Of a stretch of DNA of 64,000 nucleotides, positions 14,239 to 36,138 are shown piece by piece. The translations under genes were made by a program, and so were the position numbers. The notes below the pieces were generated by a model. That model worked only from the letters and a program-made list of their open reading frames with translations. It ran no database searches and was not told where the DNA came from. Position 1 is the stretch's first letter, and every line of letters begins with the position of its first letter. This DNA comes from Alphaproteobacteria bacterium (lineage in GTDB: Bacteria; Pseudomonadota; Alphaproteobacteria; UBA2966): positions 7,701 through 71,700 of the forward strand of contig JASLXG010000048.1 of the NCBI GenBank assembly GCA_030740435.1. Reading direction: 5' to 3'.

Positions 14239-15900
14239 TCAGGCCGCCACCAGGGGCTGGCCGAAGCCCAACTCGGCACGCACCCGAGCGCAGACCTCGC
14301 CGTGGCTGGTCCCGGCCATGACGGCCTCGACCACGGCCCCGAATAGATTCACCCCCTCGTCATGGCAAGCCCGGGCCAGAGCGTCCAGCGCGCGCTGCAC
14401 GGCGGCTTGGTCGCGATCACGTTTGAAAGCCTCAAGCCGGGCCAGATAGGCCTCGATGCTGGCCTCGTCGGTGCGTGGCAGCGGCGGCGGGCGTTCGTCG
14501 GCGGCCGCCACTTGGTAGGCGTTGACGCCGACCATGACCTCCTCGCCGCGCTCCAGCCGCTCCTGAAAGGCCTGGGCGGACTTGCCGATGATTTGCTGCA
14601 CCAGTCCGCTCTCGACGGCGGCGAACATGCCGCCTGCCTCGTCGATGCGCGCGATCACGGCGGCGATCTCGGCCTCCATCTGATTAGTCAGTGACTCGAC
14701 GTAGTAGGAGCCGCCGAAGGGATCGATGACGTCGTCGAGATGGGCCTCGGAGAGCAGAATGTTCTGGCTGGCGACGGCGATCCGGGCGGCTTCCTCGGTG
14801 GGCAGGCTGAGGGCCTCGTCGTAGCTGTCGGTGTGAAGCGACTGCAGGCCGCCACAGATCCCGGCCATGGCCTGGACGGCCACGCGGGCGACGTTGTTCA
14901 AGGGCTGCTGGCGCGTCAGGTCGGCACCCGAGGTCTGGCCATGGAAGCGGAAGCGCCGGGCGCGTGGGTTGCGGGCACCGAAGCGTTCTCCGGTGATGCG
15001 GTGCCAGAGCCGGCGGCCGGCGCGGAACTTGGCGACCTCTTCGAAAAAGCTGATGGAGATGTCGAAGAAAAAGCTGAAGCCGGGCAGGAAATCATCGGGC
15101 TGGTGGCCCCGTGCCACCATGTCGTCGGCGTACTGGATGGCGGAAGAAAGGGTCAGCCCCATGGCTTCGGCCGGCGTCGCCCCGGCCTGCTGCATGTGCT
15201 GGCCCACCACCGACAGCGCGTTCCAGCGCGGCACCTGGCTTCCCATCCACTCGATGTGGTCCAAGAGCATGCGCCGCTGGGCCGCCAGGGGCAGCCGGAA
15301 ATACATGTGCAGTGCAACGAAATGCGAAAGATAGTCCGACTGGTTGGTGGTGCCGGTCAGGCTCGACCAGGGCAGGCCGCGGTCGCGGGCCACCTTCAGC
15401 ATCATGGCCGACAGCGTGTAGGGCGCGGTATCGCCCAGACTCAGCGTCATCTCGTCGAAGGCCAGGCCGTCCAGGCAGCTCGCCATGTCGTCCGAGGTGT
15501 TGATGACGACACCGCAGTGGCCCAGCTGTTCTGGCTCGACCTGGTCGGCATCGTAGCCCCGCATATGCGTCGGACAGGGTGCAATGAAAAGTGTATTGAG
15601 GCCGGCCTGGCAGAGCGTGCGGATGCGGGCGTTGAAGTCCTCGGGCAGGCCCAGGCCGACGACGTGGCGCCGGTTCCAGCTGCGGCCACGGTTCATCGCC
15701 GGGTAGATGCCGCGGCTGGTCGGCGCCTGGCCGGGATAGCCGAGATCCTGGTCGTAGCGCGAGGAATCCCAGTCCTCGGGCGTATAGAGCGGCTTGACCT
15801 CCAGGCCCGAGCGGTTCCGCCGCGCCACCTCGTCGGGTAGTTGGGCTCGGTAGTCTTCCCGCCAGCGTCGGCGCGCCCGGGATTTGACGGCATCGTTCAT
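14239..15900 (-). CDS. methylmalonyl-CoA mutase family protein, catalytic (N-terminal TIM-barrel) subunit without a B12-binding domain
   Basis: 554 aa. Start trimmed to MNDAVKSR. Mutase-family blocks ([51 protein letters not shown]...). No cobalamin-binding domain in this ORF or in neighbours. Confidence 0.8.
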
Positions 15901-33969: not shown

Positions 33970-35292
33970 CTATGGCCGATTGCCAGACCTGAATTTCTGC
34001 CGCAATTCGTCGGCGAGATCTCGAAGATGAATTGTTTCATCCGCCAAGTCCTCAAAGGCAAAAGGATTCAGAAATTGGCGGCCCCAGAATAGATTTCCAT
34101 CGGCATCGCTAAGTTCGGCGGCCTGGCAAACCTTGGCCCAATTCTCGCCGATACCAATCATCTGTTTTTCGATGATGGCGACAGCTTCTTCAATCGAGAG
34201 CTGGAACAAATGGGCGGCTTCCAAGCAGGCGGAGATTCGGCTCATGCGATTGTCACCAGATATCAACATGGCTTGAGAAGCCTCGTTGCCGGAACGCCCC
34301 TGCGGGCAAATGTCATAGGCGGGGGTTAGGGTCAGTATTTCGCCGTCCCAGAAGGCGGCGTGGTTGCGCGCATGGTCATCGGTATTACCGCTGAGGATGT
34401 TAAACGTCATCCGGCCAAAGAGTTCCCTTAAGCTTGCGGGCGCATCGCTGAATCTGTGGCGGACAATTTCCGCCAAGTCCTCATAGCTGGCGTAACGGGC
34501 CATCATCTCATCGAGTTCAAAGAGGGTCAGGGCCGAGACCATGCTTTTGCGTTGCCACCCCTGCGCTGACAGCACGCGGTCAAACCGTTCAATCAGCAGC
34601 ACGTCCTTGCTAGCGGTCTTCTTAAGCGTCACCGGTGCGACGCTCAGGCCGACAATGTGGGCCAAGCGCATGGCGACAAACTCGCCTTTGACTACGCTAT
34701 GGAGGTCCGAGCTGGAGGAAAACTTGGCGATAAATTTCTTCTTGTGATCCTCGACAAGCGCTTTCGGACGGGCCCCGCCAATCGAACTTCCATAGTGCAG
34801 GGCTTGATCAAGTTCAGCAGTCAGGGGAATGCCTTTCTCGACGCGTTCGGCGGCCTCGAGCAGCTCGTCCAGCGACGCGTTTGTCGGCGAACGGGGGACG
34901 TATTCACTGGGAGAGCGCTGAAAATCCAAAGCGCCAATACGGTCGGAGCCAGATTCCAGCAGGTAGGTCAACTCGTCGAGTTGGTTGTCGGTAACATTTT
35001 TCCCCTGGCGGCTCAGCTTCCTGTTGATGATGACGCGCCGTCCCCACGCATCGGGAGCACCGTCTCGGATGCAGTTGGGCAGGGAAAGGCCGGGGAGCAG
35101 GGGAATCATCCCCGCTTGCAACGGCAGTTCCGGCTCATGGATTGGCATGGCGTTGTCGCGTTCCAGATAGCTTTTACCGTAGTTGAACAGCAACACCTCG
35201 CCTTCGGCAAATAGCCGACCGGCGACCACCGGCTGCGTCTCTGCCGGCAGCCAAATCCAGACATAAGCCTCGGTGTAGCCGTTAGAAGTCAT
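33970..35292 (-). CDS. hipA: type II toxin HipA family serine/threonine kinase
   Basis: 440 aa with HipA N-terminal and C-terminal kinase-like regions (GARPKALV, DDHARNHAAFWDGEILTLTPAYDI). Confidence 0.85.
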   Translation of the reverse strand: MTSNGYTEAYVWIWLPAETQPVVAGRLFAEGEVLLFNYGKSYLERDNAMPIHEPELPLQAGMIPLLPGLSLPNCIRDGAPDAWGRRVIINRKLSRQGKNVTDNQLDELTYLLESGSDRIGALDFQRSPSEYVPRSPTNASLDELLEAAERVEKGIPLTAELDQALHYGSSIGGARPKALVEDHKKKFIAKFSSSSDLHSVVKGEFVAMRLAHIVGLSVAPVTLKKTASKDVLLIERFDRVLSAQGWQRKSMVSALTLFELDEMMARYASYEDLAEIVRHRFSDAPASLRELFGRMTFNILSGNTDDHARNHAAFWDGEILTLTPAYDICPQGRSGNEASQAMLISGDNRMSRISACLEAAHLFQLSIEEAVAIIEKQMIGIGENWAKVCQAAELSDADGNLFWGRQFLNPFAFEDLADETIHLRDLADELRQKFRSGNRP

Positions 35293-35620
35293 CTTCTACG
35301 ACCCTTCGCGGCTTATGGGTGCTTTTGGGGAGCAGGGCCAGCTTTTCGTCTGCCAGCTTGGTGTGCCTGGTCAGCGTCGATTTTTCGGCATCGAACAGCG
35401 TGACGCCAACAATCGTTGCCACTTCGAAGACGAGGCCGATTTCACACTTGAGGTCACCGTTTTCGATCTTGCGCAGCGTGTAACGCGTGATGCCCGCCCG
35501 ATCCGCCACGTCCTCTGCGGTCAGCTTGCGTTCTTTCCGGCCCAGCCTAATGAGCTTGCCGAGCAGCGCGGCGGCTTCCTTGCTGTAGCGCGAATATGCT
35601 CGCGATTTTGTCCGCCCCAT
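35282..35620 (-). CDS. hipB: HipB-like XRE-family HTH antitoxin
   Basis: 113 aa from the ATG of MGRTKSRAY. HTH motif LTAEDVADRAGITRYTLRKIENG. Overlaps hipA by 11 bp. Confidence 0.75.
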   Translation of the reverse strand: MGRTKSRAYSRYSKEAAALLGKLIRLGRKERKLTAEDVADRAGITRYTLRKIENGDLKCEIGLVFEVATIVGVTLFDAEKSTLTRHTKLADEKLALLPKSTHKPRRVVEDDF

Positions 35621-35632
35621 AGCTTTACTCGA

Positions 35633-35767
35633 ATGGTTACTGTAACGACCATATTTCCCAAATATGGTCGTTACAGTAATCATTCTAATGCCAAGCGTTG
35701 ATAGCGTCAAACACAAATGATTACCGTGGTAACCATTTTTTTGAATATGGTTAATCAGGTGACCATC
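35633..35767. promoter_or_regulatory. four 20-bp palindromic operator-like boxes (ATGGTTAC-N4-GTAACCAT consensus) bracketing a sigma70-like promoter upstream of hipBA
   Basis: Boxes at 35633-35652, 35664-35683, 35717-35736 and 35748-35767. Boxes 1-2 form a near-perfect 54-bp palindrome. On the minus strand, TTGACG (35705-35710), a 17-bp spacer and TAGAAT (35682-35687) lie between boxes 2 and 3. Confidence 0.55.
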
Positions 35768-35808
35768 GCCCACGACGTCCGCTCAAGTTCGCGAGCAACG
35801 CAAACGCT

Positions 35809-36138
35809 TCAGCCCCCGGCGCAGTCGATACAAAGCGGCACCGCCGGATCGAGCTCCAAGCGCGCCGGTTCGATCTCCTCGCCGCAGCGCAGGCAGTCGC
35901 CGAATTCGTCGGCTGCCAGGCGGGCCAGCGCGGCGTCGATGCGGCGGATTTCCTGGCCGCGGCGGCGATCGGTTTCCAGCGACATGGCCTGAACCTGCAG
36001 CGCGTCCATGCGCGAGAGCCGGCCGACGCGGGACTGGTCGAGCTCGACGGGGGCCCGTGCGGCGTCCGAGGCGGCGGCTATCTCGACCAACTCCTGGCGC
36101 CTTTGCTCAAGGCGGGCTTTGGCCTTGGCGGCTTTCAT
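35809..36138 (-). CDS. DksA/TraR family C4-type zinc-finger protein
   Basis: C-terminal CLRCGEEI...CIDCA four-Cys finger and an N-terminal coiled-coil-like region. Confidence 0.8.
   Translation of the reverse strand: MKAAKAKARLEQRRQELVEIAAASDAARAPVELDQSRVGRLSRMDALQVQAMSLETDRRRGQEIRRIDAALARLAADEFGDCLRCGEEIEPARLELDPAVPLCIDCAGG

What the first reader, a model, noticed from the sequence alone, without database searches (positions are those of the whole stretch)
33970..35770. HipBA toxin-antitoxin module with a non-canonical four-box palindromic operator array around a sigma70-like promoter
HipA kinase and the HipB HTH gene overlap by 11 bp. Upstream lie four 20-bp boxes with ATGGTTAC-N4-GTAACCAT-like symmetry: 35633-52, 35664-83, 35717-36, 35748-67. 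Boxes 1-2 and 3-4 each have 31-bp centre-to-centre spacing. They flank a -35 TTGACG / 17 bp / -10 TAGAAT promoter on the minus strand. Four operators match known HipB biology, but the half-site differs from the E. coli TATCC-N8-GGATA motif. This suggests a distinct HipB specificity class. The locus is AT-richer than its surroundings, hinting at horizontal acquisition.
Basis: partly seen in the sequence, partly recalled or inferred. Interest (0 to 1): 0.6.

Follow-up and report, generated by a model that had tools for sequence, protein, structure and literature searches.

The report
HipBA toxin-antitoxin with four-operator promoter
This is an intact hipBA toxin-antitoxin gene pair whose promoter carries four palindromic repressor sites; more than 100 related loci keep the same layout, so it is a real but ordinary self-regulating module from an unstudied HipBA subfamily.

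Summary
hipA (33970-35292, minus) and hipB (35282-35620, minus) overlap by 11 bp. Four 20-bp palindromes lie at 35633-52, 35664-83, 35717-36 and 35747-66. They surround a TTGACG/17/TAGAAT promoter.

The array is not chance. ATGGT-N10-ACCAT with at most 1 mismatch occurs 6 times in 64 kb against 0.68 expected, and 4 of the 6 are here.

It is also conserved. Across 81 loci encoding this 112-aa HipB family, 45 have four boxes and 20 have two, at about -146, -115, -61 and -30 from the ATG. Pair spacing is 31 bp in 85 of 88 pairs. The -10 ends 2 nt inside box 2 in 74 of 107 loci.

The inner half-site bases co-vary with the HipB recognition helix: ATGRTY-RY in the window's subclade (TRxTLRK) against ATGRTC-TA in the main clade (SRGLLQR).

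So HipB almost certainly binds these boxes and represses hipBA, as in E. coli (TATCC-N8-GGATA ×4) and Shewanella (GTGTA-N6-TACAC ×4).

The locus is the most AT-rich stretch of the window. Close relatives carry a deletion scar there instead. It is a new member of a known kind, of modest interest.

The parts
33970..35292 (-). hipA, a 440-aa HipA-family Ser/Thr kinase toxin
   Evidence: Pfam HipA_C 1.4e-46 and Couple_hipA 1e-6. The catalytic loop GNTDDHARN and Mg-site YDI align to SoHipA GNADAHGKN / YDL. All 66 complete downstream ORFs in related loci are orthologues (E <= 1e-130).
35282..35620 (-). hipB, a 112-aa XRE/Cro-type HTH antitoxin and autorepressor
   Evidence: Pfam HTH_3/HTH_19/HTH_31. 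The family has 827 homologues, and 71 of 81 loci encode exactly 112 aa. The AlphaFold model has pLDDT 79 with the recognition helix at residues 46-53. The best PDB matches are HipB proteins.
35282..35292 (-). 11-nt hipB/hipA overlap (GATGACTTCTAA region; HipB ...DDF* and HipA MTS...), implying translational coupling
   Evidence: Read directly from the sequence. The same 11-nt overlap occurs in 41 related loci and a 14-nt overlap in 18. It is also seen.
35633..35652 (.). Box 1 (promoter-proximal operator, in the 5' UTR): ATGGTTACTGTAACGACCAT
   Evidence: The homologous box lies at about -30 from the ATG in related loci.
35664..35683 (.). Box 2 (operator overlapping the -10 and the predicted start site): ATGGTCGTTACAGTAATCAT
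   Evidence: The homologous box lies at about -61. The -10 ends 2 nt inside it in 74 of 107 loci.
35682..35687 (-). -10 hexamer TAGAAT
   Evidence: position conserved across the family.
35705..35710 (-). -35 hexamer TTGACG
   Evidence: The family -35 is TTGACA in 56 loci and TTGACG in 9, with a 17-nt spacer in 85 of 107.
35717..35736 (.). Box 3 (operator 6 nt upstream of the -35): ATGATTACCGTGGTAACCAT
   Evidence: The homologous box lies at about -115.
35747..35766 (.). Box 4 (distal operator): ATGGTTAATCAGGTGACCAT
   Evidence: The homologous box lies at about -146. The distal pair plus the -35 is retained in the deletion scar of relatives.
35631..35685 (.). 26-nt inverted repeat formed by boxes 1 and 2; it could fold as a 17-bp hairpin at the 5' end of the mRNA
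   Evidence: 96% complementary. RNA fold -29.2 kcal/mol, z = -5.4. By inspection of the upstream sequences of the window-type and main-clade relatives, the extended mirror symmetry is absent there.

Best explanation
This is a functional type II hipBA toxin-antitoxin operon that represses itself.

HipB dimers bind four 20-bp palindromic operators. The family core is ATGRTY-N8-RAYCAT. In this subclade the half-site extends to ATGRTY-RY.

The operators form two pairs. Boxes 4 and 3 lie just upstream of the -35. Box 2 covers the last 2 nt of the -10 and the predicted start site (about 35675). Box 1 lies in the 5' UTR. Occupancy of boxes 2 and 1 would exclude RNA polymerase.

The near-invariant 31-bp spacing within a pair is three helical turns, so both dimers sit on the same DNA face. 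This should allow cooperative binding, probably through HipA bound to HipB as co-repressor, as in E. coli.

hipB and hipA overlap by 11 nt and are therefore translationally coupled. When HipB is lost, the promoter is derepressed and the HipA kinase is freed. By family analogy it would then phosphorylate an aminoacyl-tRNA synthetase and arrest growth.

Shown here: gene identities; the reality, conservation and fixed geometry of the boxes; the promoter geometry; and the co-variation of operator and recognition helix. Inferred: actual HipB binding, cooperativity and HipA bridging, the start site, toxicity and the kinase target.
For: - Clustering. There are 4 of 6 window matches here against 0.68 expected, and the boxes are the top four sites in 64 kb.
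- Conservation. Among 81 loci of this HipB family, spanning Alpha- and Gammaproteobacteria, Desulfobacterota, Chloroflexota and Nitrospinota, 45 have four boxes and 20 have two. Background is 0.014 sites per 260 nt outside the upstream regions.
- Geometry. Boxes sit at -146/-115/-61/-30. Spacing is 31 bp in 43 of 44 distal and 42 of 44 proximal pairs. The window's boxes lie at -146/-116/-63/-32.
- Promoter. The -10 ends 2 nt into box 2 in 74 of 107 loci and the spacer is 17 nt in 85 of 107. The window matches this.
- Co-variation, with sites chosen on the outer hexamers only. Half-site position 7 is a purine in 53 of 54 half-sites next to HipBs with recognition helix TR[YNFT]TLRK, against 26 of 704 for SRG[LM]xQR. 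Position 8 is a pyrimidine in 51 of 54 against 156 of 704. The modelled recognition helix spans residues 46-53.
- Precedent. E. coli HipB binds four TATCC-N8-GGATA operators cooperatively with HipA as co-repressor (PMC3920265). S. oneidensis has four GTGTA-N6-TACAC operators (PMC4150777).
- Intact toxin. HipA keeps its catalytic motifs. The exact HipA protein is indexed in 84 blocks of the assembly collection (24 contigs carrying it were read).
Against: - There is no binding, start-site or toxicity experiment; everything is comparative.
- The weight matrix was seeded from the ATGGTC/GACCAT pattern, so site counts are partly self-fulfilling. The background control and the fixed positions argue against an artefact.
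- The window-type subclade has only 8 loci, one of them nearly identical to the window. They share ancestry, so the Fisher p-values overstate independence.
- The window's distal pair is spaced 30 bp, not the family's 31.
- About one third of loci lack the distal pair, so four boxes are not obligatory.
- S. oneidensis HipB showed no cooperativity between adjacent operators (PMC4150777), so cooperativity here is not guaranteed.
Confidence: 0.85

Rival explanations
1. Only the proximal pair (boxes 1-2) acts as the HipB operator. The distal pair (boxes 3-4) does something else, such as binding another factor or acting as an AT-rich upstream element, or it is dispensable.
For: Of the 81 loci, 20 carry only the proximal pair. 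The deletion scar in relatives keeps the distal pair although hipB is gone.
Against: The distal boxes share the same consensus, the same 31-bp phasing and the same subclade-specific position 7/8 switch as the proximal boxes. The scar is simply what a deletion left behind.
Confidence: 0.08
2. The main function of boxes 1-2 is at the RNA level. Their 26-nt inverted repeat would form a 5'-terminal hairpin that stabilises or translationally controls hipBA mRNA.
For: A 17-bp hairpin is predicted at -29.2 kcal/mol with z = -5.4.
Against: By inspection of the relatives' upstream sequences, the extended mirror symmetry is confined to the window's lineage; in L005 the two boxes are direct repeats, and main-clade pairs could form only about 6 bp. 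Each box is a palindrome on its own. Boxes 3-4 lie upstream of the promoter and are not transcribed. No Rfam family matched; the only hits were sub-threshold miRNA hairpin look-alikes. The hairpin may be an add-on, not the explanation.
Confidence: 0.04
3. The module is no longer a working toxin-antitoxin pair. HipB would be only a transcription factor, or the locus is decaying.
For: Several related loci have hipB with a degraded or missing hipA. Close relatives of the window organism carry a hipBA deletion scar at this very site.
Against: Here both ORFs are intact and the catalytic residues are conserved. The overlap and operators are intact. The identical protein recurs in many samples.
Confidence: 0.08
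4. The boxes are chance repeats or ends of a small mobile repeat unrelated to hipB.
For: None beyond the AT-rich intergenic context.
Against: None of 100 shuffles reached the observed count. Positions relative to hipB are conserved in more than 100 loci from several phyla. Background outside the upstream regions is 22 sites in 419 kb.
Confidence: 0.01

Closest known systems
E. coli K-12 hipBA and its O1-O4 operators (TATCC-N8-GGATA)
   Same: - The gene order is hipB then hipA, with a Cro/XRE HTH antitoxin.
- Four palindromic operators with widely separated half-sites are arranged as two close pairs around a sigma-70 promoter.
- HipB acts as autorepressor with HipA as co-repressor (PMC3920265, PMC4150777).
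- From my own knowledge (Schumacher 2015, Nature 524:59; not held in the library), HipA-HipA contacts between complexes on adjacent operators silence the kinase.
   Different: - The half-site is ATGRTY(RY), not TATCC, and no E. coli-type site occurs here.
- The site is 20 bp, not 18 bp.
- Start-to-start spacings are 31 / 53-56 / 31 bp, against 28 / 39 / 28 bp (from the 10, 21, 10 bp gaps in PMC4150777).
- The gene overlap is 11 nt, not 1 nt.
- HipB is 112 aa, not 88 aa, with a basic N-terminal arm and a conserved C-terminal LALLPKS...DDF tail.
- HipA is only remotely similar (profile E 1e-8, kinase core only).
Shewanella oneidensis MR-1 HipBA (PDB 4pu3/4pu4)
   Same: It has four copies of a family-specific palindrome upstream of hipBA. 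Its HipA is the closest solved HipA by sequence (E 7e-13 with the family profile). The HipB HTH core superposes at rmsd about 1.9 Å.
   Different: - The operator is GTGTA-N6-TACAC.
- The operators are evenly spaced with 34-bp gaps, and one lies inside the hipB ORF.
- No cooperativity was measured (PMC4150777).
- No such site occurs in the window's hipBA region.
Pseudomonas fluorescens 2P24 HipB (PDB 9u9g, released 2026)
   Same: It is the best sequence match (E 1.2e-5) and the best fold match (Foldseek E 2e-4, TM 0.80 on the target, including the helix after the HTH).
   Different: Identity is only 27%. It is 153 aa, not 112 aa. I found no paper on it or its operator.
Caulobacter crescentus HipBA1/HipBA2
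   Same: They are alphaproteobacterial hipBA modules with repeated palindromic operators in the promoter (PMC8545095).
   Different: Three operators are reported, not four, and their sequence was not in the text I could read. The relationship of these HipA/HipB proteins to the window's was not tested.

Membership tests
HipBA type II toxin-antitoxin (HipA kinase family) | Toxin with a HipA_C kinase domain | tested here: met
   PF07804 at E 1.4e-46, 159 bits against a cutoff of 30.5.
HipBA type II toxin-antitoxin (HipA kinase family) | Long-form HipA with the N-terminal subdomain (Couple_hipA), i.e. not a split HipS/HipT | tested here: met
   PF13657 at 29.6 bits against a cutoff of 22.5, residues 23-124, within a single 440-aa ORF.
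HipBA type II toxin-antitoxin (HipA kinase family) | Catalytic Asp/Asn loop and Mg-binding Asp conserved | tested here: met
   GNTDDHARNH aligns to SoHipA GNADAHGKNY, and TPAYDI to TPWYDL. These residues are invariant in the 11-sequence family alignment.
HipBA type II toxin-antitoxin (HipA kinase family) | P-loop with the autophosphorylated Ser (E. coli S150) | tested here: inconclusive
   An invariant S169..GGARPKA motif resembles the HipA P-loop, but the HMM alignments to solved HipAs did not cover it.
HipBA type II toxin-antitoxin (HipA kinase family) | Upstream, co-oriented HTH antitoxin gene in one operon | tested here: met
   hipB (HTH_3) overlaps hipA by 11 nt, and this is conserved in relatives.
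HipBA type II toxin-antitoxin (HipA kinase family) | HipA toxicity neutralised by HipB; phosphorylation of an aminoacyl-tRNA synthetase | not testable with these tools
   Requires expression and phosphoproteomic experiments.
HipB autoregulation through repeated palindromic operators | Multiple dyad-symmetric sites overlapping the hipBA promoter | tested here: met
   Four boxes surround the -35 and -10. The layout is conserved in 65 of 81 loci.
HipB autoregulation through repeated palindromic operators | HipB physically binds the sites | not testable with these tools
   The only indirect support is the co-variation of half-site positions 7/8 with the recognition helix.
E. coli-type HipB operator class | TATCC-N8-GGATA half-sites | tested here: not met
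   There are 3 matches at up to 2 mismatches in 64 kb against 8.6 expected. The one in the region is a poor match bridging two boxes.
Shewanella-type HipB operator class | GTGTA-N6-TACAC half-sites | tested here: not met
   There is 1 match in the window, at 15497, against 4.2 expected.
NCBIfam TIGR03070 couple_hipB (Y4mF-family antitoxin) | Score above the curated cutoff | tested here: not met
   40.7 bits against a cutoff of 71.65.
NCBIfam NF007297 YjjJ-type HipA | Score above the curated cutoff | tested here: not met
   40.1 bits against a cutoff of 401.

The most novel reading that the evidence does not exclude
This 112-aa HipB family may be a natural set of orthogonal repressor-operator pairs. 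The outer hexamer (ATGRTY) stays fixed. A two-base switch at half-site positions 7-8 (TA versus RY) tracks recognition-helix residues, with Leu48/Arg51 in one class and Thr48/Lys51 in the other.

The near-invariant 31-bp phasing of box pairs would reflect an obligatory HipA-bridged (HipA2HipB2)2 assembly. That would make the kinase-silencing architecture proposed for E. coli general across distant HipBA clades.
Probability: 0.3. Interest if true: 0.5.

Novelty: new member of a known kind. Interest (0 to 1): 0.35.

Why it matters
Only a few HipBA modules have been studied (E. coli, Shewanella, Caulobacter and the HipBST variants). This locus belongs to a large, widely transferred and uncharacterised HipBA subfamily.

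- Size and spread: 827 or more HipB homologues, found in several phyla and on 105 plasmids.
- What the comparison provides: a ready-made operator model with a consensus, four positions, 31-bp phasing and a defined relation to the promoter.
- A testable specificity rule: a two-base operator change matched to recognition-helix changes.
- Practical uses: better annotation of hipBA promoters, correction of over-extended hipB ORF calls, and designs for EMSA and specificity-swap experiments.
- Broader question it opens: whether paired-operator, HipA-bridged repression is general among HipBA systems.

It does not change how HipBA systems are understood.

Tried and rejected
- **Known operator types.** The E. 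coli and Shewanella patterns are absent from the region.
- **RNA element.** Rfam returned only sub-threshold miRNA hairpin look-alikes caused by the inverted repeat. By inspection of the relatives' upstream sequences, the 5'-UTR hairpin is not conserved.
- **Prior description.** I found no paper describing an ATGGTC...GACCAT HipB operator. The only 'GACCAT' plus HipB hit was a primer table. I found no paper for PDB 9u9g.
- **Gerdes Hip-tree clade.** I could not place the kinase in a clade. The supplement held no matching organisms, and the family is too distant from clade I references to place by sequence.
- **HipA structure.** I judged a further database search unnecessary because the Pfam and motif evidence suffices.
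- **Schumacher 2015.** The paper is not held, so the HipA-bridging precedent is cited from memory.
- **DksA/TraR-like gene (35809-36138).** I considered it as part of the module and rejected that. It belongs to a conserved block (mraZ ... BphC-like, AMP-binding, DksA-like) that is present in relatives lacking hipBA.
- **PADLOC.** Only weak generic hits appeared, so there is no evidence that this is a catalogued defence system.
Full report
**Observation.**
The minus strand carries hipA (33970-35292, 440 aa) and hipB (35282-35620, 112 aa). HipA matches Pfam HipA_C at 1.4e-46 and Couple_hipA at 1e-6. HipB matches HTH_3, HTH_19 and HTH_31. The two genes overlap by 11 nt. A longer GTG-started ORF (35773, 163 aa) reads through the promoter and is an artefact. 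The HipB family is 112 aa in 71 of 81 loci and aligns from the ATG at 35620.

Upstream lie four 20-bp palindromes at 35633-52, 35664-83, 35717-36 and 35747-66. Spacing is therefore 31 bp for the proximal pair and 30 bp for the distal pair.

ATGGT-N10-ACCAT with at most 1 mismatch occurs 6 times in the window against 0.68 expected. None of 100 shuffles reached 6, and four of the six matches are here.

The promoter scan finds one site on the minus strand: TTGACG (35710-05), a 17-nt spacer and TAGAAT (35687-82). The -10 overlaps box 2 by 2 nt. Box 3 ends 6 nt upstream of the -35.

**What it is: comparative evidence.**
HipB has at least 827 homologues, most of them exactly 112 aa. A scan of one genome per species returned 80 loci from Alpha- and Gammaproteobacteria, Desulfobacterota, Chloroflexota and Nitrospinota. 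Their upstream regions show the same design by eye.

A symmetrised weight matrix converged on ATGGTCTATATATAGACCAT. At 8 bits or more, 45 of 81 loci have exactly four sites within 260 nt upstream and 20 have two. Only 22 sites occur in the other 419 kb of these loci, or 0.014 per 260 nt.

Positions are nearly fixed at -146, -115, -61 and -30 from the ATG. Spacing is 31 bp in 43 of 44 distal pairs and 42 of 44 proximal pairs. The gap between pairs is 54-56 bp. The window's boxes sit at -146, -116, -63 and -32.

The promoter is conserved in register. The -35 is TTGACA in 56 loci and TTGACG in 9. The spacer is 17 nt in 85 of 107 loci, and the -10 ends 2 nt inside box 2 in 74 of 107.

In 66 loci the downstream ORF is a HipA orthologue (E <= 1e-130). 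It overlaps hipB by 11 nt in 41 loci and by 14 nt in 18.

**Who binds the boxes.**
I re-picked sites using only the outer hexamers, so the interior could not bias the choice. I then grouped loci by the HipB recognition helix, which is residues 46-53 in the AlphaFold model (pLDDT 79).

- *Main clade (helix SRG[LM]xQR, 118 loci).* The half-site is ATGRTC-(T/C)-A-(T/C)-A.
- *Window's subclade (helix TR[YNFT]TLRK, 8 loci).* The half-site is ATGRTY-(A/G)-(C/T)-T.
- *Position 7.* It is a purine in 53 of 54 half-sites in the window's subclade against 26 of 704 in the main clade.
- *Position 8.* It is a pyrimidine in 51 of 54 against 156 of 704.

The loci share ancestry, so the p-values are inflated, but the switch is clean. 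It ties the boxes to HipB rather than to another factor. More distant plasmid homologues (56-57% identity) have other upstream sequences again. Operator specificity therefore drifts with HipB.

**Mechanism.**
The best-supported model is classical HipB autorepression. Boxes 2 and 1 cover the -10, the predicted start site (about 35675) and the 5' UTR. Boxes 4 and 3 abut the -35.

The 31-bp phasing is three helical turns. It puts paired dimers on one face of the DNA. This would allow cooperative binding, possibly bridged by HipA as proposed for E. coli (Schumacher 2015, cited from my own knowledge because the paper is not held).

HipA keeps the catalytic GNTDDHARN loop and the YDI Mg site. I therefore expect it to be an active kinase toxin, but its target is unknown. 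Binding, cooperativity, the start site and toxicity are all inferred.

**Comparison with known systems.**
E. coli HipB binds four TATCC-N8-GGATA operators cooperatively, with HipA as co-repressor (PMC3920265). The gaps between those operators are 10, 21 and 10 bp. S. oneidensis has four GTGTA-N6-TACAC operators separated by 34 bp and shows no cooperativity (PMC4150777). Caulobacter HipBA1 and HipBA2 have three operators (PMC8545095).

Neither the E. coli nor the Shewanella motif occurs in this region. The HipA family here is only remotely similar to the solved HipAs. With the family profile, SoHipA scores 7e-13 and EcHipA 1e-8, covering the kinase core only.

The nearest HipB structure is P. 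fluorescens 2P24 HipB (PDB 9u9g, 27% identity). I found no paper for it. I found no publication describing this operator.

So this is a member of the HipBA kind with a family-specific operator. The logic is the same as in E. coli. The sequence, spacing and protein termini differ.

**Horizontal acquisition.**
The hipBA segment has the lowest GC of any 1850-nt window in the 64 kb, at 0.558 against a mean of 0.665. Its GC3 is 0.67-0.72, against 0.79-0.89 in neighbouring genes.

The HipB family is 57-65% identical across phyla. It occurs on 105 plasmids. One close homologue lies next to a phage-type integrase.

The sister lineages are the most informative. One contig is 97.6% identical to the window from 40000 down to 35809, and others are 82% identical. 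All lose homology exactly at the stop codon of the DksA/TraR-like gene. About 45 nt later they carry two window-type boxes 31 bp apart and a TTGACG. These are fused directly to the last ~36 codons of a hipA that is 83% identical to the window's.

This is a deletion scar. It removed the -10, boxes 2 and 1, hipB and most of hipA. Beyond the scar the relatives carry unrelated genes, and their contigs break off within 1-2 kb.

Other relatives have no hipBA at all, and one has an IS21 element nearby. hipBA is therefore an accessory, present/absent element at a synteny breakpoint. The scar in relatives only 82% identical also implies long residence or repeated allelic exchange at this site, not a single recent insertion.

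**Rivals.**
- *RNA hairpin.* The box 1-2 mirror repeat is predicted to fold at -29.2 kcal/mol with z = -5.4. By inspection of the relatives' upstream sequences, the extended mirror symmetry is specific to this lineage. It also cannot explain the untranscribed boxes 3-4. Rfam gave nothing real.
- *Chance or a mobile repeat.* This is excluded.
- *Different role for the distal pair.* This is possible, because one third of loci lack it, but it is unlikely given the shared consensus and co-variation.
- *Decaying module.* Some relatives show decay. The window's copy is intact and widespread.

**Verdict.**
Novelty is modest: a new member of a known kind, with a well-defined and experimentally testable operator model.

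Noticed in passing
L104 4913-5140 (also L102, L103, L185); corresponds to window 35808 and 34082-33970: Sister lineages (97.6% and 82% nt identity in the flank) carry a hipBA deletion scar: two window-type boxes 31 bp apart plus TTGACG, fused to the last ~36 codons of a hipA allele only 83% identical to the window's. The mismatch between flank identity (97.6%) and scar identity (83%) suggests recombinational exchange at this site.
   Followed up: partly
window 35631-35685: Boxes 1 and 2 are mirror images and form a 26-nt inverted repeat. It is predicted to fold as a 17-bp hairpin at the very 5' end of the hipBA mRNA (-29.2 kcal/mol, z -5.4). Inspection of the relatives' upstream sequences did not show this extended symmetry, so it may be a lineage-specific add-on affecting mRNA stability.
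   Followed up: partly
window 35621-35773 (minus strand): An upstream GTG extends the hipB ORF to 163 aa across the operators. A public database entry (P0001, 155 aa) uses such an over-extended start. The family alignment and the operator positions show that the ATG at 35620 is the real start.
   Followed up: yes
L007, L038, L068, L075, L076 (degraded hipA); L008, L025, L036, L051, L056 (no hipA found): Several related loci keep hipB and its boxes but have a frameshifted, internally deleted or missing hipA. These are orphan antitoxin/repressor genes, and some contigs may simply be incomplete.
   Followed up: partly
L019, L026, L079 upstream of hipB: These HipB variants (recognition helices ARSTLQK / SRSTLQR) keep one or two boxes upstream of the -35. 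In place of the proximal pair they have a different conserved sequence (…ATTGCCCTTTTAAAGAATGGGATAATCTC…). This may be a different proximal operator or leader.
   Followed up: no
L081-L086 (P0004 loci, 83% HipB identity): The closest non-identical hipBA homologue sits about 480 bp upstream of a phage-type integrase gene, consistent with carriage on an integrative element.
   Followed up: no
window 35809-36138 (minus strand): A 109-aa DksA/TraR-type C4 zinc-finger gene ends 42 bp before box 4. It belongs to a block conserved next to the mraZ-rsmH-ftsI-mur cell-division cluster in relatives that lack hipBA, so it is not part of the module. No terminator was seen between it and the hipBA promoter.
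   Followed up: partly
L185-L192 and L099-L104, 1-2 kb downstream of the DksA-like gene: Every relative's contig ends or changes gene content just beyond this point. The contents include a hybrid histidine kinase, glutamate dehydrogenase or IS21. The region downstream of hipA in the window (TPP enzyme, 420-aa ORF, MBOAT) is therefore strain-variable.
   Followed up: partly
L193 (Agrobacterium fabrum pAt2788a), L194 (Sphingomonas sp. MM-1 pISP1): Cultured-organism plasmid homologues (56-57% HipB identity) are annotated as HTH regulator plus HipA family toxin. They have different upstream palindromes, for example AAGGCTTATATATAAGCCAT before a TTGACA in pISP1. They could serve as tractable experimental models.
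   Followed up: partly
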